Shown: positions 18,796 through 45,364 of the stretch, one piece after another
Layout of the letters: the number at the start of each line of letters is the position of its first letter
How positions within the stretch are numbered: the first letter of the stretch is position 1
Assembly (NCBI GenBank): GCA_964016885.1
Contig: OZ024746.1
Location: 20,088,001 to 20,152,000 of the forward strand
Direction: 5' to 3'
DNA length: 64,000 bases
Source of the DNA: Eledone cirrhosa
Taxonomy: Eukaryota
Position numbers and translations under genes: made by a program
Notes under the pieces: model-generated
Seen by the model: the letters and a program-made list of their open reading frames with translations, nothing else
Databases searched by the model: none
What the model was told of the DNA's origin: nothing

Positions 18796-18993
18796 AATTG
18801 TTTCTACTTTTGGCACAAGGCCAGCAATTATCCCAGTGTATTACTGGTACTTTATTTTATCGACCCCGTAAGGATGAAAGGCAAAGTTAACCTCGGCGGG
18901 ATTTGAACTCAGTCCGTAAAGGGACGTAACTGTGCTGCAAAGCATGGCGTCCGACCCTCTACCGATACTGCCAATCCCACCGTCCAATCCACC
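18796..18993 (-). mobile_element. SINE family A, full length
   Basis: A and B boxes; 19-bp TSD TGAAAATAGAGAAATTAAT at 18780-18798 and 18994-19012. Confidence 0.9.
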
Positions 18994-19104
18994 TGAAAAT
19001 AGAGAAATTAATGTGAGCAAGAAGCCAACAATAATTCATAATATATAAGTGACTATTACGTCAAGATGGAAAATATTTAACGTAAGATATGGGAAAATAA
19101 TTCA

Positions 19105-19937
19105 ACACATCTTCAAATCTATCGACCGGACGTCAGACCCCGACGATATCGTTAATTATCCGGTTGAGTTATTAAATTCCCTTGAGCCCCCAGGGCTCTC
19201 ACCTCACATTCTTAAGCTTAGGGTTGGCTGTCCCATTATGCTAATAAGGAACTTGCGTCCACCAAAGCAGTGCAACGGTACTCGCATGGTCGTCAAGTCA
19301 ATGACGCCCCACTTGATTGAGGCCACCATTGTAACGGAGTGTGGGAGAGGGGAGAATGTTTTCATTCCAAGGATGAACCTTTTCCCCTCGGCGTCAGATA
19401 TCCAGTTCGATTTCCGGCGATCCCAATTTCCGGTGAGACCATGTTTTGCCATGTCCATTAACAAGTCACAATGGCAAACATTGTCGGTGGCGGGAATCCA
19501 TTTGGGGGAGCCATGCTTCTCCCATGGCCAACTTTATGTTGCCTGTTCCCGCGTAGGGAGCAGGAATGGAGTTTTTGCTTACACTCCTCAAGGGATGACA
19601 CGCAATATCGTCTACAAAGAGGTGATATAGATGTTGGTGCAGGTGTTGGGGCTATGCCGTCTGGAAAACTGGTAGGGTCACCCATAGCGGACAGATCTGA
19701 CACCCAGCGGCATCAGGGCCACCATCTTGCAACTTTGGTCTACTAAATTCGCTATTGGAAGATTATTAACCCATCATTGATTGTCCAAAATGCTAATTGG
19801 TTCGTAACTATTAATAACCGGTTCAACTGCTTTATGCACTTAATTGATAAGCTTATGCGCTTTCAAGCTACGTTTACCTGTTTGTAACTTTTTATAGCAA
19901 ATGAACAAACCCGAGCAACGCCGGGATAAACTGCTAG
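19105..19937 (+). mobile_element. Helitron 3' end (PIF1-family helicase C-terminus, hairpin, CTAG)
   Basis: NYPVELLNSL..PH.LKLRVGCPIMLIRNL..CNGTR..FIPR..QFPVRPCFAMSINKSQ.QTL..FSHGQLYVACSRV..TRNIVYKEV; hairpin CCCG..CGGG at 19910-19925; CTAG at 19934-19937 followed by T. Confidence 0.92.
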
Positions 19938-19963
19938 TATATATCTATATCTCTCTCTCTCTC

Positions 19964-20624: not shown

Positions 20625-22130
20625 TAACCCGGTCTATAACAAATCTATTAAAACCAATCTACCCTCAAAATTCTTTCGATTAGTTAGAAAACACTTTCCA
20701 ACATCACATAAATATAATAAAATCTTAAACCCTAACACTCTCGACTTTCATATTCAACCGCCCCTAATATTGAACAACATATAAAAAAGCTTAACGCAAA
20801 ACGGTTGTATAAACGCCTTCCAACACATAACAATACACGTAAAACATTAGCTATAACATCACAAAACAACAAACAACATCCTGTCCTACATAAGCAACCT
20901 CATCAACCCATCCATGGCAATACAACAACGCAAAATTATAATTGCAACTGTGTCCAACCAGGAATGTGTCCGTTGAACAATCAGTGTCTTGAACGCAACA
21001 TCGTATACAAATGTACTATCGAATCGGATAGACAGAAGTGGTACTATGTGGGATCTACAGCCACCTCCTTCAAATCACGCCTTTATAGACATCGTTATTC
21101 GATAAAACATGAAAACCAGCGTTATGTAACAACACTCGCAGACAAGGCTTGGCAGCTGCGTGAAAATAACCAACAATTTCACCTAAAATGGGATATAATA
21201 GCGGCTGCCCCCCCCCCCCCCCCCCCCCATATTCCCATGGACAGGAATTTTGTAAATTATGTAATGTAGAATTATTTTGTATTATGAAATCCAAAAACAT
21301 TTTATTAAATAACAGAATAGAGCGATCGTTATACTGTAACCATCGCTTAAAATCTACATTTTCATATTATAAATACTACCAGGATTGAACGCCTGTTTCT
21401 ATCCCCGTTTGATTGTCAAAATAGATATGAACATTCTTTATTAGTCTTAATTCTATCAACTCTTCTATTATTTACCTTTTAATACAAACTGCTATAGATA
21501 AAATGAGATTTCTGATTTCTTGATTCAATTCCCTAATGCATATACCAGCTGGCTACTAGCATTGATGTTATTTAGTAGCAATCGAAATCTCCCCCTTCCC
21601 CAATTGACACTTTATAATTAATACTACTGCACCAAATGACCAGCCCTGTCCACTGTCCAGTTGGTCAAGTAGAGATTAAAATTGGCACTCCCAAAATTCT
21701 TATTTAGATTTACTCATGGTATTCTCATTAAAAACCCATTATATACTTGTTTAGCAGTAAATTAATTTACCATCTGTCATATACTATCCCCTCTGTTTCT
21801 TCCTCTATTACTAATATAAATACTTCAATTTTTCTGATTTTATCCAGTTTATCCAAAATCTCTGAAGAAGTGGCAACTGATTATACATTTGCTATCGAAT
21901 ACTTGCTAACATTATATGATTACGCAAGCAGCGGTACATAGGTATTCGGTCTGTTACAGAAACATATGTCAATACCTAATAAATTCCTTTTTTAACAAAA
22001 GCACTTTCATTTTATATTCATCCTTTCTATATTTCTCCGGAATATAATTTATACTCGTTGAGCAAACCAGCACGTACGCTGTTCATCTCTAACGTAACGA
22101 TATATTATCACTACATTATTGATAACCTAA
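20625..22130 (+). mobile_element. 5'-truncated Penelope-like element (thumb region, Cys linker, GIY-YIG endonuclease, pLTR)
   Basis: YNPVYNKSIKTN..KHFP..; CNC-x5-C-x5-C linker; IVY..YVGST..FKSR..H; CKLC..E..LLN.R.E..CNH; frameshifted. Confidence 0.9.
21858..21974 (+). ncRNA. Type I hammerhead motif with a long branched stem II
   Basis: CTGAAGA 21862-21868; stem II base GTGGCA/TGTTAC, inner TCGAATACT/GGTATTCGG; GAAA 21959-21962; palindromic ACATATGT; C17 at 21970; stem I degenerate. Confidence 0.65.
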
Positions 22131-22224
<94 letters not shown>

Positions 22225-22500
22225 AGGATGAATATAAAATGAAAGTGCTTTTGTTAAAAAAGGAATTTATTAGGTATTGTTCATCTCTAACGTAACGATA
22301 TATTATCACTACATTATTGATAACCTGAAATTTTATATATATATATATATATATACTTAGGGTAAACATTGATGCAATTCAATTCAAGCATTAAACGTAC
22401 TTATTCCACATAGGAGTGACGGAGTAAATATCGAATAAGTAAAAGCGAAGTAGTTTCAGATGTTCAAGTCCTTTAATAATAATGGAGTGATATATACTTC

Positions 22501-22688
22501 TGGATTGGCAGTATCGGTAGAGGGTCGGACGCCATGCTTTGACGCATAGAGTTACGGTCCTTGCCATTCTGAGTTCAAATCCCGCCGAGGTTTACTTTGC
22601 CTTTTATCCTTACTGGGTCGATAAAATAAAGTACCTGTAATGCACTGGGTAATTGCTGGCCTTGTGCCAAAAGTAGAAACAATTATTA
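22501..22688 (+). mobile_element. SINE family A
   Basis: A and B boxes, body and (ATT)n tail; flanked by a 39-bp inverted repeat. Confidence 0.9.
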
Positions 22689-23844
22689 TTAAAGGACTTG
22701 AACATCTGAAACTACTTCGCTGGAATTTGGTAGAATATATATATATATGCATGTATATATATATGTATATACATGCGCACACGCACACGCACACACACAC
22801 ACACACACATATATATACGTATATATATGCATACTTGCATATAGGCCTGTTTATATTTGTATGTATGTTTCTGTATGTGAGTGTGGGATTATTTTTATCA
22901 AACCTAGTTACAGCAAATCTTTATACTAAATTAGGCTTGACGAATTCTAAACTCAAGTTTTATTCTTTACTATTCTCAATTAAAATTAATTGATAATATC
23001 TTATAATAACTGAAGCATGATGGTCTCTGAAAAAGTACTGACATCGAGGTATCTCCCCGTATGATATTACTGTTTCTATCTTGTCTTTTGGCTTGATAAG
23101 ACAAATTGTTATAAATACATTTAGTGTAGGAGCTCACACGTTTTATATAAAGAATTTTAAATGTTTCATTATCTGAGACTCTCTATGTAATTAGTAGATA
23201 AAAATTCTCTCAAGGCGTGTTCAAAATCTTAAAACTACAAGGATACGAAATAACTCCAAAATGTTTGCAAAATATATATCAAATTGCTGTTTGTGGGAAT
23301 ATTGTCTTTAAGGTAAATGGTGAGAGCAACGGATGTGTTTTATTTAACCTCGTCAGTGAAGTATACTCTAATCAGTTGGTAAGACCAAGAGAGATCAATA
23401 TACAGATATATGTCACCCCACATCGGTAAGAAGTTCCAGACTTAAGTTGAAAAGCAACCAACGTCAAATGTTATGTTTTTATTCGTTATTTTTTAGGGTT
23501 TTAAACCTGTGATAATCAGGCGTCCGTCTTGTGTTCTCAGTTGCTTAAGGCTAATGAAACATGCATAAACACCAGTCCAATGAGGCTCCGGGGTTCAGAT
23601 AGGCTTTAACCTAACTAAATTTCAAGTCGGAAACACTAAATCAGAATTTGTTGCTGTATCAAAAGATTATTCTGAAGAAGAAAAAGTAGTTTTTATATTT
23701 GGAATATACGAATAATCAAACCAATCCATGGGTAGTATTATATATAGTTTTATGACAATGCCAAGTTACACAAGAAAGTAATATCTGCAGAGAGCTTTTT
23801 TGTCACTGCCGAAAATGTAAATATCTTTTTATACAATCGAGATT

Positions 23845-31269: not shown

Positions 31270-33470
31270 TTTTTATTGTGCTGTATCAGATGAAAGAATG
31301 GTATTTAACAAATGTATTGGTACGCGATGGGACGCCCCACAGCCCCGGCGGACAGAATGGAGAAGGCTTTTCCTCGGAGGACGGCAAGGGAGACGCGCTG
31401 GAAAAGCCACTCCAACTCGCGGGGCTCACACCTGCGGCTGGCCAGCTCAGCGCCTATGGTGGTGAGTAAGAAGGGCAGGGCATGGAGCCAGGCACCACTG
31501 TGGGGTTTCGAGGCCGCACGAAAACAAGCAAGGCGGTGCTAGTCGAGCTGGCGCGTGAGCCTGTCTGAGGTCAGGCTGCACTGGATGGCATCCTAAGTGC
31601 GTTGAGGGGACTTGACGTCAACAGGGAGGAGAAGGAGGAGGGACGTCTACTGGGCTAAGTCCCAGCCGGTCCCACGTCTCACAGGCGGCCTCAAGTTCTC
31701 TGAACACAGAGGGTTCTGTTGTGTTTTGAAGAACTCTGCTGACGAGGACGCGGCACGAGGTTACCGACGAAAGATACGCCGGCAAAGCTAGTGAGATCGG
31801 GGACCGGAGGCCTAGGCCGCCATACCTGACCGGTAAAGTGGCCTGTTGCTACCCTACGTCGTCAAACTTGACGTTGCATATCCCCTCAGCTGCTGCTCGG
31901 ATACAAGTATCGAGGTCAGCGAGGAGAGATGTCTGGGTGTAGCCCGGAGCGCTGCGAAGTGTATAGAGGAGCTTCGGCATGGCGAAGCAGTTCCTCAGCA
32001 GAAAGAGAGCTGGGTGGCCGTCAATCAAGCCCAGTCGGCTCGTGAGAGTCTGGAGCTGTTGAAGCCTGAACCTGATGGTGGAGCGGATGGCCGGCGGGTG
32101 GATCTGTGACCCGAGGATGAGGACATCCTCTTTGGGGTCACCTGAACCTGGCGGAGAATGGACCACACGTCCAAGACGGAGGCTGCAAAGCTTGCAGCAT
32201 CGAGGCTGACGTTCACCACCTCCGACTTGGCCGAGTTGACCTTTAGGCCGATTCCCGCCAGGGCAGGAATCACCGATTGAAGGTCTTGGCAGACCGTTCG
32301 TACGGGCCCGCCCAACGTAGCATCATCCATATACCAAACGTTGAGAGGGGCCGTGATACTCCGGGCGATGTGATCAATACCAAGGGCGAACAAGAGGAGT
32401 CCCAAAGGGTCGCCCTGTTGGACCCCAGTAGCCGAGGGTATGACCGTATCAGCAGCTAGGAGCATGCTCGGGGCTCCATATGACAGGTAGGCCAGCAGGT
32501 AGGCAGATCGGTCTCGGCTGAGGCAGGCCTCGAGTAGATGATCCCGGCGTAAAGAGTTAAAGGCATTCCTCGTGTCAAGCTTGACAGTGAGGGGCCTGGA
32601 GTCCCTGGATGCCGGTACCGATAGGCAGCTGCTGAAGAACTGCCTGATTGCATGAGCGGCTCCCTCACAGCCACCGGACACGCCGGCACCCAGTTGCACC
32701 GGACTAAACTCCTCACCCAGTTCGTGTGTGACGGACTTGCCGATCATCTTGGCAGCCAGCCTCCGGAAGACATTGCCCACAGCAATGGGGCGTATGCCAC
32801 CCTCTTTCTTCCTGAGAGCGGTGAGGCTGGTCGAAAAAAAGAGACCTCGGGCGTAAGCGCCAGAGCTGGGGAGGCCGAGGGCGAGTGGGGCGAAATAGAA
32901 CAGCCGCTCCCAGTCACTGACTCGATTGGAGTCCAGGGCGCTCTCAATCGAGGAAGCGAGGGCATCGGCTACCGGCACCCGTGCCGCTCTCGGGATCCTG
33001 AGTGGGATCTTCCAGAACCGCCTGAGCCGAGCGATGTTGACCAGCGAGGCTCGGGCGTCAGGAAAGCTCGCTGTTACATCTGGTGGTGTGCCAGACAGCC
33101 GTGGCTGGGAAGACGTGGAGAAGAGGCAGCTCCTGCACCTCCACGCTGCGAGGGCATTGGAAGCTCGACGAGTCAAGCCAACGCAGGTGAGGTGGTGGAA
33201 GCAGCCGCACCTCAAACAGTTCCGGCCCCTCTTCCATTTGTTAGTGATGCCGCAAGTGCTGCAGGTGTCGATTTGGAGGGGTGGGGGATAGGGCGTGGGG
33301 CCGGGGACTGGGGCACCGAGCATGGAGGGGGATACACAGGAAGGTAGAATAGCAGTAAATGAATGAGTAAATGGATGGATGTACGCACAAAAAAGGGTGA
33401 GGAGAAAACAAGGGGTTGTTCCCAGCGGAAAGACCCAGAGTTCATCACGCACACATGCGAGCAACTGAGC
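31270..33470 (-). mobile_element. Near end-to-end CRE-type LINE: PHD finger plus RT, with internal deletions and no endonuclease
   Basis: C4HC3 finger at about 33126-33263. RT motifs IRPIAVG, QLGAG..GCE, KLD..NAFN, GVQQGDPLG, YMDD; LP.R.GGLG and SGAWLHALP, joined directly to the C-terminal WLFQRVSLAVLRG; AATAAA at the 3' end. Confidence 0.9.
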
Positions 33471-34606
33471 AGTTTGTCATAGGACCTTGTGGCTGGAGGT
33501 GAGTTACTGATGCTGGGGTTGGCTTCCTCTTGTTAATGGTAGTTAACAAGAGGAGTTGTTGTTGTTAATGACACTGTTGTCGTCGTTGCCTTCCTCTTGT
33601 TAATGGTGAAGATATAGAGCGAAATACAAAATCCACCAACAGGCAATTATATAAAAAAAAGTATCTAGAAATAAAAGTCAACATTTCTGTCTGGGATATA
33701 AAGATTTGTTTTACATTTTCGCAAACAACGTAACGATATTCTCAATGGACGCGCTTACAATATTTTAATATAACTGAACTGTCGTGTCATTTAATTTGAA
33801 AGTGGAGCAAAGTAAAAGGAGAATAGTGAATTTGGAGTGTCAATTGCTTGTGATTTTTTTTTTTTTTCAATACCGGACTTACAGTTTTCCAGGATTTATA
33901 CTCATTTTTTTTTTTCCTTCAAAAGGATGGAGGCGTTTTATCTCCTCATGAAACTGACATTACTTAATGATGATCGTCATCTATGGCTTATTCATATGTA
34001 TTATTTCATAATTCTATAGAACTTTTAGAATGTTTGTGCAGTGTTCTGTGTCCAGCCAGGTTTGTACAACAGGTAAGAAAAATGATGATTCGGTGACGGT
34101 TTCTTCTGATAGGAGCCTCTTCCACGTCGGAAGATCGAAGTGTGTTTTCTTGTCTTCTTCAATACTTTCATAAACGGCTTCGGATATTTAAAACTTATGT
34201 TTCAATTGGTGCTTCCATTTCCACACGGTTCTATTGTCTTATTTACAAAAATACATTTCTATATATTTCTTTATTTATTTCTCTTCTTTTAGTATAATAT
34301 AGCGAGTTGTCACCAGTGATGTTTGAAGTTCCTTTTGTAGCAGCATATTATTTCTGTAGAAAATTTTAAGTGTGCATTTCAGATTTTTAAAAAAATTTTA
34401 GAATTGCCCAAATCTTTGAGACAAGTGCTATGACCTTATGTTTGATATTCTCTGAGTTTGAGAAGCCTTTGTAATAGGTAGCCTTTTAGCTATCATTTAC
34501 TACGTAAACACATAGTATTTCACACAAAATGTAATCTTACTGCACAGAATTAGATTTAGAGCTATACAAGTGGTGGTCAACTGTACATTAAAATAATTAC
34601 TGATGC

Positions 34607-42798: not shown

Positions 42799-45364
42799 TT
42801 CTTCTGGTTTCATAATTTCACAAAGTTTTACCAATAGAGAGAGAGTCGGGTTCTAACATAGACACAAGACTCTCTCATTGGAATTTACACAACATCAACT
42901 AGGTAGATATGTATGACTGTCTGCATGCATGTATGTGTAGATATGGATGTTATTGTATGTGTGGATGGGAATGTTTTAAGTTGTATGTGTGTATGTGTAT
43001 ATGCTTTGTATCTGTACATGTGTATGTGCAGTTATTAGATGCAACATTTTTGGAATGTTTTACATATTTTTACTGTTCCATTAATGGATTGTACTTGTAA
43101 TTTCCTAACAAGTTGTGTTCTTTCTGTTCCCGTGAAGCCCATCTTCTCAAGATTTGTATTGAGGCAGTTACTAACATATCCCAGTGCCCCAATAATCACA
43201 GACATAAATCTGAAGGTGTAATCAGGGTGGAGTATCTGCAGATTTCTCATCAGTTCTGCATAAATATTCTCCTTTTCGCTAATTTTTAATATTATATTGG
43301 CATCTGCTGGACAGCTAACTTCCACTACTGTGCATGCCTTCTTTTCCCTGTCCCATATCATAATATCTGGTCTGTTATGCCTGCATTTTATTGGGGTTTT
43401 TACTAGAACATTCCACCAGTAGTGTTTCATATTATGTACATGGATGTCTTCCACATTGCTGTAGCTTTTAATGTGTTTATTATCGGGGCTATCTTTTCTA
43501 CAGATTGCATTGTACAGTGGTTTTGCCACTACATCATGTCTCATAGGTAGATAGTACAGCGATGACATCTTTGGACAGCTGCTGATGACATGGGTGACAT
43601 CTTCGATGTTAATTCTGCAGAGTCGGCACTTGTTATTACATCTAGGTATTTTGCCTGCATCCCTAACTCTTTTGTGAATCAGGTATTTCGTGTTAATTTC
43701 CTGTTCTTGGATTGCAAAAGCGTATCCTTCAAAGTGGGAGCCAATATAGCGGTTATTGGTCGAAGATAGACTACTTTCCTCATCTATATTACTCTCACTC
43801 TGGAGCTTCCTGGCAACATATCCATGCATGATTTTTTGCTGAATAGCATGCAGTTTTTCATCCATGGATTCACTGCGATACTGCTGAGCGACTTCCCTGG
43901 GTGTGAGTTTTTGATTATCACACAGGGAATATCTCTCGAGGAGTTCCTTCCCAACTCTCATGATCTTATCTGTTTCATGCAGATAGACTTGCTCGAGCTC
44001 CTACGCTTCGAGGTTCGTAGATGTTGTCGGAGGGATATGATGCGACATTCAAATGCTGTCTGGACTGATGTTAGGCCTCCGCCTCCCTGCTTTCGTTTCA
44101 AGTAAAGGTGGTCTGTTGATGTGAAAGTTTCCGTTGTTGTTTAGTATTTTTTGAGTCCTAACATCAAATGCTCGGATTTCGTCTATTGTCCAATTGAGTA
44201 TTCCAAACGTTGGTGTTAGGACAGGCATAGCAAACACATTGTGAGTCACTGTTTTGTTTTGCGCAGAGAGTTCCGATGACCAGATCTTTTTTAATCGAGT
44301 GTAGTATTCCCTGGTTACGCGTTCCTTATTACAGATACCATTATAGGATATGTTCTCATCTATTCTCAGGTATCTGTAGCAGTCCTCATCAGATATCGGT
44401 AAAACAGTTCGGCCATTGATGACAATGTTGCTAGATTGGGTTGTTGTTTTTCCCCGCTTTACAGTCATATATGAGCATTTATCTTGGCCAAACTCCATTC
44501 CTATATCCTTTGAGAATGTTGTAACCAAGTCAAGATTTTTCTTCATCCCATCCATGTCCTTGGCATAGAGTTTCAGATCATTCACAAAGAAATTATAGGT
44601 TAGGTTCGTATTTCTGTCCTCCTGTGAGCCAATGATGTATCCTTCACATTTCTTGAGCAGAAAGGACAAGGGGTTTAATGACAGGATGAATAATATCACA
44701 GAGAGACTGTCTCCCTGAAATATACCCCTGCGATATTTTATTTTTTCAGTGAAAATAGAGTTCTCCTTCTCTGTCTCCTTAGAATAGAAGCCCAAGAAGA
44801 AGACAGCGTCTCTGGCTCTGATAATAATGTCTGGGACTTTAGCAAGTTGGAGGGCCTCTATCATCCAAGAGTGGGGAACAGAATCGAAAGCTTTCCTGTA
44901 GTCCAGCCAGACTGTAGCCATATTCCTCCTAAGTTGTCGCACCTCCGACATCGCAGTTTTGTTGATTAGGAGTTGTTCAGCACATCCCCAAACCCCTTTC
45001 TTTCCAGCTGCTTGTTACGTCCCTTTACGATCTGAGTTCAAATCCCGCCGAGGTTGACTTTGCCTTTCATCCTTACGGGGTCGATAAAATAAAGTACCAG
45101 TAATGCACTGGGTAATTGCTGGCCTTCTGCCTAACGTAGAAACAATTATTTTCACAGTGATCTTGGAGGAATAGGTTCAGGCAGGCTGTATACATTCTTA
45201 TACATCAGGTTCTGGCATGCAATGGGTCGGTAGCCTTTTGCCAAGTGGGTGTCTTTGTTCTTGGGGGCCAGTAATGTTTGTGCTAATGTCAACCATTCTG
45301 GTATTAGTGTATCTCCCTTAAGAACTTGTTGGTAGAGGTCAGTAAGATACTTCCGTAAGATACC
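42799..45364 (-). mobile_element. 5'-truncated R4/Dong-type non-LTR retrotransposon (RT, CCHC, RLE), frameshifted
   Basis: YRPIAC, WLDYRKAFDSVPHSW, GIFQGDSLS, FVNDLKLY, CRLC..EDVTHVISSC, RHD, NRPDIMIWD..VEVSCP..KENIY; (CATA)n on both sides. Confidence 0.92.
45015..45150 (+). mobile_element. SINE family A nested in the R4-type element
   Basis: 5'-truncated copy interrupting the DHCE...QAAGKKG segment. Confidence 0.9.

What the first reader, a model, noticed from the sequence alone, without database searches (positions are those of the whole stretch)
21970..22326. Inverted pLTR copy that begins at the predicted ribozyme cleavage site
Seen: 22221-22279 is the exact reverse complement of 21970-22028. 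It is fused through a 2-nt TG microhomology to a direct copy of 22080-22128 at 22278-22326. The predicted hammerhead cut (C21970|A21971) falls inside that 2-nt window. Inference: a genomic fossil of RT running off the self-cleaved RNA 5' end and template-switching, which would be in-genome evidence that this hammerhead was active in vivo.
Basis: partly seen in the sequence, partly recalled or inferred. Interest (0 to 1): 0.75.

Follow-up and report, generated by a model that had tools for sequence, protein, structure and literature searches.

The report
Twin-primed Penelope stub, capped RNA template
This 114-base piece is a separate short insertion of a young Penelope-type jumping gene, likely made by copying the element's RNA from both ends of one DNA cut, and its stop at the predicted ribozyme cut is probably chance, because across the genome sister copies stop about five times more often at the likely capped start of the RNA.

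Summary
Both matches are exact (59/59, 49/49). 22221-22334 is a separate insertion of a young Hydra-type Penelope-like element: its 3' end differs from its neighbour's. It has the family's usual layout; 530 copies start an inverted arm at 22028 beside (TA)n. The hammerhead is real by homology, but its core is CUGAAGA at 21862, with an 88-nt stem II that a sister family shares, and a weak stem I. The proposed breakpoint test gives weak support only: 0 of 90 unbiased inverted arms end at 21969-72; genome-wide, 10 arms end at A21971 against 4-7 expected (p 0.004-0.17). The real run-off peak is A21846, 31 nt below a TATA box: about 56 arms, 17 of 36 checked preceded by G where the genome has C, the mark expected of a copied mRNA cap. 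The sister family repeats this. The template is therefore likely a capped, sense, mostly uncut RNA primed from both DNA strands. The chance that this copy records self-cleavage is about 25%. The scan noted twin-primed Penelope stubs, this long-armed hammerhead and capped-start stubs before on other DNA.

The parts
20626..22133 (+). Neighbouring 5'-truncated copy of the element (3' third of the ORF, frameshifted, plus 3' UTR/pLTR); ends AAAAC, a minority terminal variant
   Evidence: (tblastn 87-96% to the intact 772-aa ORF of L031)
21815..21821 (+). TATA box (TATAAAT), 31 nt above the run-off peak; present in old and young subfamilies and in the sister family (58582)
21844..21850 (+). Initiator-like CC-A-GTTT; A21846 is the predicted transcription start and the main cDNA run-off site, often with a non-genomic G in front
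   Evidence: the Inr consensus YYANWYY is recalled, not from a call
21862..21970 (+). Predicted type I hammerhead: core CUGAAGA 21862-68, unpaired A, 88-nt stem II 21870-21957, unpaired A, GAA 21959-61, palindromic 8-nt stem III 21962-69, C17 = 21970; stem I only about 3 bp with a bulge
   Evidence: cleavage untested
22028..22032 (+). Internal priming site B: fixed outer end of inverted arms; AUAU in this copy (ACAU in L031) can pair with the (TA)n target
   Evidence: (530 exact matches, control 0); loose ends at 22032 followed by (TA)n in 11 contigs of run X1
22134..22220 (.). (TA)n tract, left flank and likely target of the stub
22221..22279 (-). Inverted arm of the stub (element 22028 back to 21970-72), inferred cDNA primed at site B
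22278..22279 (+). TG microhomology joining the two arms
22278..22334 (+). Direct arm of the stub (element 22080 to the pLTR end, GAAATTTT variant), inferred cDNA primed at site A; (TA)n follows
57475..58882 (+). Copy of a sister family (54% aa identity over 79 aa) with homologous TATA (58582), start peak (58613), hammerhead (58616-58726) and site B (58769); used as replicate

Best explanation
22221-22334 is an independent 114-bp insertion of a young Penelope-like retrotransposon with Hydra-clade motifs, likely made by twin priming on the element's RNA, and its inner end at the predicted hammerhead cut is probably a chance truncation. Inferred steps: the endonuclease cuts both strands of a (TA)n tract. 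One 3' end primes at the pLTR end (site A, about 22136), the other 108 nt upstream (site B, 22028). The two cDNAs stop early, here at 22080 and 21970-72, and are joined through the 2-nt TG overlap. The template is likely a capped, sense, Pol II RNA that starts at A21846 and is usually not cut by its hammerhead. Shown: the layout, the fixed outer ends, the scattered inner ends, the peak at 21846 and its G bias.
For: Separate origin: terminal variant GAAATTTT versus the neighbour's AAAAC. Common layout: 530 copies with an arm starting at 22028 beside (TA)n; in 90 of them, 49 of 66 resolved arms have a direct partner arm within 60 nt. In 22 of those 49, and in this stub, the inverted arm holds sequence absent from the direct arm, so it was not copied from it. 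Inner ends: 0 of 90 at 21969-72, 5 of 90 at 21845-48 (p 0.0015). Same-design 5-nt searches: 150 hits at the start site (70 breaks among 96 classified, 36 at 21846); 58 at the cut (about 25 breaks); 44 and 29 in controls (about 14 and 10 breaks). G precedes A21846 in 17 of 36 arms against 19% background (p 1e-4) and A21971 in 0 of 10. Sister family: 21 of the first 100 listed hits break exactly 31 nt below its TATA, 11 of 21 with G (one search read by eye; p 0.012). Papers: a purified Penelope protein cuts and extends both strands, starts RT at two sites and does not need hammerhead cleavage (PMC11167929, parts 1-2 of 4 read). An extra G marks the cap at full-length L1 5' junctions, and twin priming makes L1 inversions (PMC11702581, passages).
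Against: A21971 is still the highest single position in 21948-21986 (10 arms; next 6-7), p 0.004-0.05 with neighbouring background and 0.09-0.17 with local background. Two events have both arms ending within 3 nt of the cut (L225/L226, L241/L489), and L239 ends exactly at 21971. The sister family has 25 of 64 hits at +1/+2 of its cut, though most are at +2 and fit (TA)n or palindrome microhomology. No target-site duplication can be read in (TA)n. That both arms copy one RNA molecule is weakly supported: 9 rare variants shared, 41 in one arm only, and some shared ones are alignment artefacts. Several Gs at 21846 can also be read from the partner arm, and fold-back pairs are not independent. No RNA data.
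Confidence: 0.7

Rival explanations
1. Same twin-primed insertion, but the site-B cDNA ran off the 5'-OH end of an RNA cut by the hammerhead at C21970|A21971; a minority of templates would be self-cleaved in vivo.
For: The hammerhead core, palindromic stem III and stem II base co-vary between two families: G-C versus A-U, ACAUAUGU versus ACACGUGU, CUGAAGA versus CUGAUGA. The layout matches published Hydra-clade hammerheads. 10 arms end at 21971 against 4-7 expected; 21969-75 holds 29-33 breaks against about 22. Two double-arm events lie at the cut.
Against: Stem I is about 3 bp with a bulge; the hammerhead-constrained monomer fold is 8.4 kcal/mol above the minimum, and the centroid pairs the post-cut strand with 21940-46 instead. 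6 of the 10 junctions are ambiguous by microhomology with (TA)n or A/T runs. 0 of 90 unbiased arms end there. In the sister family, with a 5-bp stem I, exact +1 ends are 5 against about 8 expected (by eye). In Anolis no reads ended at the cut (PMC11167929). The best junction reading here (first matching base 21970) needs no cut.
Confidence: 0.23
2. Self-priming or fold-back on an antisense RNA, or on the first cDNA, made the inverted arm (model of PMC3846280).
For: 5 of 49 paired copies have both arms ending within 3 nt, often at short palindromes.
Against: The two arms of this stub do not overlap. 22 of 49 inverted arms hold sequence missing from the direct arm. Arms stop at a sense-strand TATA/Inr start with a cap-like G, which an antisense template does not predict.
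Confidence: 0.04
3. A local DNA-level rearrangement (replication template switch or repair) duplicated pieces of the neighbouring copy.
For: The stub lies 87 bp from a copy to which both arms are 100% identical.
Against: The stub ends in the majority terminal variant that the neighbour lacks. Its outer ends are the family's two fixed ends. At least 13 similar stubs lie at unrelated loci (L042-L055).
Confidence: 0.03

Closest known systems
Hydra clade of C-terminal EN+ Penelope-like elements (Craig et al. 2021, PMC8557442; section 11, passages and supplement rows read)
   Same: RWK, DKT, CxCx5C, CxxC and CxH motifs; (TA)n target; partial tandems; inverted 5'-truncated copy with a one-sided tail; hammerhead with an unpaired base on each side of stem II
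   Different: Unit 3.12 kb; tail about 108 nt rather than the 30-40 bp given for PLE tails; stem II 88 nt against 10-25 nt in the Hydra rows seen; stem I weak; sequence differs from Hydra-1_Obim
Inverted-pLTR Penelope insertions (Adineta Pen2a, PMC3846280, passages and Discussion read; D. virilis, PMC2377424, passages)
   Same: Head-to-head arms, tail on one side, TATA/Inr-like motifs in the pLTR
   Different: That paper favours self-priming on an antisense template and leaves a sense template open; here non-overlapping arms and a cap-like G point to a sense capped template
Anolis Poseidon in vitro (Frangieh et al. 2024, PMC11167929, parts 1-2 of 4 read)
   Same: Two RT start sites that define the tail; both strands cut and extended; hammerhead not needed
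   Different: Other clade; its start sites are not homologous to the target, whereas here both sites carry 2-4 nt of AT microhomology; it gives no account of inverted copies in the parts read
L1 twin priming and cap-derived extra G (PMC11702581, passages; Ostertag and Kazazian 2001 seen only as its reference)
   Same: Inverted 5' segment, microhomology junction, extra G at full-length 5' ends
   Different: In L1 the second primer lands near the end of the first cDNA at variable sites; here it is fixed at 22028 and the arms may overlap by more than a kilobase

Membership tests
Hydra-clade PLE | Single ORF with RT and C-terminal GIY-YIG endonuclease | tested here: met
   772-aa ORF in L031 with YRDD (350) and YVGST (664); read from motifs, Pfam gave no relevant hit
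Hydra-clade PLE | RWK and DKT motifs | tested here: met
   RWK at 37, DKT at 119 (definition)
Hydra-clade PLE | CxCX5C linker; CxxC and CxH in the endonuclease | tested here: met
   630, 729, 757
Hydra-clade PLE | Absence of the CCHH motif | not tested
   No alignment to CCHH-bearing elements was made
Hydra-clade PLE | Insertion into (TA)n; partial tandems with pLTR | tested here: met
   3,118-3,121-nt tandem spacing
Hydra-clade PLE | Placement in the clade by RT phylogeny | not tested
   No tree built
Type I hammerhead ribozyme (PLE variant) | CUGANGA, GAA and NUH core in order | tested here: met
   21862-68, 21959-61, GUC 21968-70; CTGAAGAA in 438 of 450 motif hits shown, from redundant loci; sister CUGAUGA
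Type I hammerhead ribozyme (PLE variant) | Stem II closing the core | tested here: met
   6-7 bp base with one double change between families, present in the unconstrained minimum fold of both; 88 nt long, A.A at its foot; z only -0.5 and -1.3, and our centroid differs
Type I hammerhead ribozyme (PLE variant) | Short palindromic stem III allowing a dimer | tested here: met
   8-nt perfect palindromes in both families
Type I hammerhead ribozyme (PLE variant) | Stem I of 4 bp or more next to the core | tested here: not met
   About 3 bp with a bulged C in this subfamily, plus a distal 6-bp helix; 5 bp in the sister; Rfam gave no hammerhead hit here at E<=1
Type I hammerhead ribozyme (PLE variant) | Self-cleavage after H17 | not testable with these tools
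   Breakpoint census is indirect and borderline
Twin-primed insertion | Inverted arm primed separately on RNA | tested here: met
   Arms do not overlap here and in 12 of 49 pairs; fixed outer end; indirect
Twin-primed insertion | One target-site duplication around both arms | tested here: inconclusive
   Both flanks are (TA)n
Twin-primed insertion | Both arms from one RNA molecule | tested here: inconclusive
   9 shared against 41 one-arm rare variants

The most novel reading that the evidence does not exclude
The inner junctions of these insertions read out the in vivo 5' ends of the element's RNA: a major capped start at A21846 and a minor uncapped end at A21971 made by a long-armed hammerhead. 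This stub would then be a fossil of self-cleavage, and the genome would record a cleaved-to-capped run-off ratio of roughly 1:10.
Probability: 0.27. Interest if true: 0.65.

Novelty: new member of a known kind. Interest (0 to 1): 0.4.

Why it matters
The stub itself is ordinary Penelope debris. The census around it bears on two open points. Which RNA is the template: PMC3846280 favoured antisense self-priming and left an unspliced sense RNA open, whereas a TATA-spaced run-off peak with a cap-like G in two families argues for a capped sense RNA primed from both DNA ends. Whether the hammerhead matters: most templates are read straight through it. The result gives single-base predictions (A21846, A21971, 22028) for 5' RACE and in vitro tests. 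Searches listed no paper that applies twin priming or a cap signature to Penelope elements; I judged this from listings plus the six papers opened, and most subscription papers are not covered.

Tried and rejected
My first reading, that no hammerhead exists because no CUGANGA follows the helix at 21940-46, was wrong; the sister family showed the core at 21862. Rfam: no hammerhead hit at the locus. Pfam: no RT or GIY-YIG hit for this ORF. One search was off by one base and only counted 2,993 mostly intact sister copies; one search repeated it. One search was swamped by an indel subfamily (809 hits). RNA: no RNA holder listed; contigs of two runs of unknown kind cannot show starts or ends. Idea that the stub is an amplified mini-element: no second identical junction. 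Rows dropped before break counts: substitutions, small indels, internal deletions, local duplications and chance matches outside the family; nine copies of one Helitron-like junction were counted once. Treating local duplications and deletions strictly or loosely gives 29 or 33 breaks in 21969-75; one search used 33 and includes the window's own junction. Background rates (2.8, 3.4 and 3.1 per nt) rest partly on rows read by eye and on assumed capture of about 0.8. Two searches for a cap-G reference: the first found nothing. Supplements of the bioRxiv preprint (passages only) were not seen.

Full report
Observation. Both matches are exact and share TG at 22278-79. The inverted arm can therefore end at 21970, 21971 or 21972. 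The direct arm continues to 22334 and ends GAAATTTT; the neighbouring copy (20626-22133) ends AAAAC. These are two terminal variants of the family, so the 114-bp stub is a separate insertion in the same (TA)n field. Exact identity says little, because the 40 best of 1,447 candidate copies are 99-100% identical.

The element. Tandem copies give a 3.12-kb unit with a 772-aa ORF. It carries RWK, DKT, CxCx5C, CxxC and CxH and inserts into (TA)n, the features given for the Hydra clade of Penelope-like elements (PMC8557442 section 11). No tree was built and Pfam gave no relevant hit.

Layout. 530 copies have an arm that starts at 22028 directly beside (TA)n (reversed-pattern control 0). I fetched 90 of the first 100 listed. 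In 24 the arm ran past the fetched DNA. Of the other 66, 49 had a direct partner arm within 60 nt, 16 had none and 1 had a partner in the same orientation. In 22 of the 49, as in this stub, the inverted arm holds sequence that the direct arm lacks, which rules out copying of the first cDNA. Two fixed outer ends with scattered inner ends fit two primers, one from each cut strand. A purified Penelope protein cuts and extends both strands and starts RT at two sites (PMC11167929). This mechanism is inferred. Evidence for a single RNA molecule is weak: 9 shared and 41 one-arm rare variants.

Is there a hammerhead? Rfam found none, and no CUGANGA follows the helix at 21940-46. A sister family in the same window settles it. 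It keeps CUGANGA with a different N, an 8-nt palindrome after GAA with two changes that keep it palindromic, and a stem II whose first pair changes from G-C to A-U. The stem II base forms in the unconstrained minimum fold of both families, although the z-scores are weak and our centroid differs. Published Hydra hammerheads show the same unpaired base on each side of stem II, but with 10-25-nt arms, not 88. So C21970|A21971 is the right site by homology. In our family stem I is about 3 bp with a bulge, and the constrained fold costs 8.4 kcal/mol (5.5 in the sister).

The proposed test. Of 90 unbiased inverted arms none ends at 21969-72. Whole-genome pattern searches then collected arms of either kind. 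First matching bases after removing substitutions, indels, local duplications and chance hits: 21969, 6; 21970, 3 (one is this stub); 21971, 10; 21972, 4-6; 21973, 3-4; 21974, 3; 21975, 0-1. Neighbouring windows give about 2.8, 3.4 and 3.1 breaks per nt (partly read by eye). Chance matches pile up on the A after a C, so 4-7 are expected at 21971; p is 0.004-0.05 on the neighbouring rate and 0.09-0.17 on the local rate. Six of the ten are ambiguous by microhomology; L239, L241/L489 and L225/L226 are cleaner. In the sister family 64 hits span its cut against 32 in a control window; 5 fall at +1 and 20 at +2, most of the latter explicable by (TA)n or palindromes. A small cleavage signal is possible but not shown. 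About 10 junctions in a 3-nt window arise by chance genome-wide.

Where RT does run off. A search of the same design at 21845-49 gave 150 hits. Of 96 distinct arms classified, 70 are breaks and 36 of these start at A21846, about 56 genome-wide; upstream and downstream controls gave about 10 of 29 and 14 of 44. A21846 sits in an initiator-like CC-A-GTTT (consensus recalled), 31 nt below TATAAAT. The genome has C before it, but 17 of 36 arms have G (background 19%, p 1e-4); outside full fold-back pairs 9 of 20 (p 0.007). Some of these Gs can also be read from the partner arm. None of the 10 arms at 21971 has G. An extra G from the cap is the known mark of full-length L1 copies (PMC11702581). The sister family repeats the pattern: of 147 hits, the first 100 read by eye give a mode of 21 at 58613, again 31 nt below its TATA, with G in 11 of 21; the 30 scripted loci show a broader cluster, 26 of 29 breaks within 10 nt of the core.

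Mechanism. Likely a capped sense RNA starts at A21846 and is mostly left uncut by its hammerhead. The endonuclease cuts (TA)n on both strands, and RT primes at about 22136 on one end and 22028 on the other. The cDNAs stop early or run off the cap and are joined by microhomology. In this stub they stopped at 22080, a recurrent stop, and at 21970-72. I put 0.7 on this with a chance inner end, 0.23 on the same process with a ribozyme-cut template, and less than 0.1 on fold-back or local DNA rearrangement.

Relation to known work. Inverted pLTRs with a one-sided tail are standard for Penelope-like elements. PMC3846280 favoured antisense self-priming and left a sense template open. PMC4209133 (parts 1-2 of 4 read) found low activity for such hammerheads in vitro. 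Searches listed no paper applying twin priming or a cap mark to these elements. Earlier notes of this scan describe twin-primed Penelope stubs, a long-armed Hydra hammerhead in this genome, capped-start stubs in another genome and, in one other genome, a peak at the ribozyme cut. I reached my reading before seeing them, and they are unchecked leads, not support.

Verdict. Observation confirmed; interpretation partly supported; new member of a known kind; interest 0.4, carried by the start-site and cap evidence rather than by the claimed cleavage fossil.

Noticed in passing
window 21942 to beyond the pLTR end (L031): Possible 212-nt spliceosomal intron in the 5' leader (GTATTC donor at 21942, CTATACAG acceptor 31 nt above the ATG). 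It would contain the 3' half of the hammerhead and both priming sites, so only unspliced RNA could be a template.
   Followed up: partly
element 22080 (L056-L058, L060, L096, L106, L133): Direct arms stop repeatedly at 22080, the 3' strand of a small predicted tail hairpin: 3 of 12 tail-ending partners. The stub's direct arm stops there too.
   Followed up: partly
L197, L201-L203, L488 and four more listed: A Helitron-like 3' end (hairpin plus CTAG) is joined to the element between A21972 and T21973 at nine loci, with different element subfamilies downstream: recurrent targeting or co-amplification.
   Followed up: no
window 19049-19940: Pif1 helicase fragment (PF21530) followed by a hairpin and CTAG: Helitron remnant (label from recalled features).
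   Followed up: no
L032/L081, L066, L192; window 22507-22701, 18832-18977: An abundant short repeat (SINE-like, recalled label) is inserted at about element position 21911 at three independent loci, and just above the core in two sister copies.
   Followed up: no
window 56753 (-), 8325 (+), 8587 (-), 7559 (-), 50295 (-): Other hammerhead-like cores with short stem II, from other repeat families.
   Followed up: no
rows near contig ends (C7, C8, C9, C13, C19 starts; C5, C6 ends): A variant with a 2-nt shorter stem III palindrome and G at 21971 recurs within about 50 kb of contig ends, probably a subtelomeric duplication.
   Followed up: no
sister family, window 58613-58616: The predicted start lies 3 nt above the hammerhead core, so a transcript starting there has only 3 bp of stem I, while a read-through pLTR has 5 or more: a possible way to silence the 5' ribozyme.
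   Followed up: partly
window 32025-33476 (-), 44049-45014 (-): Two unrelated RVT_1 reverse-transcriptase fragments.
   Followed up: no
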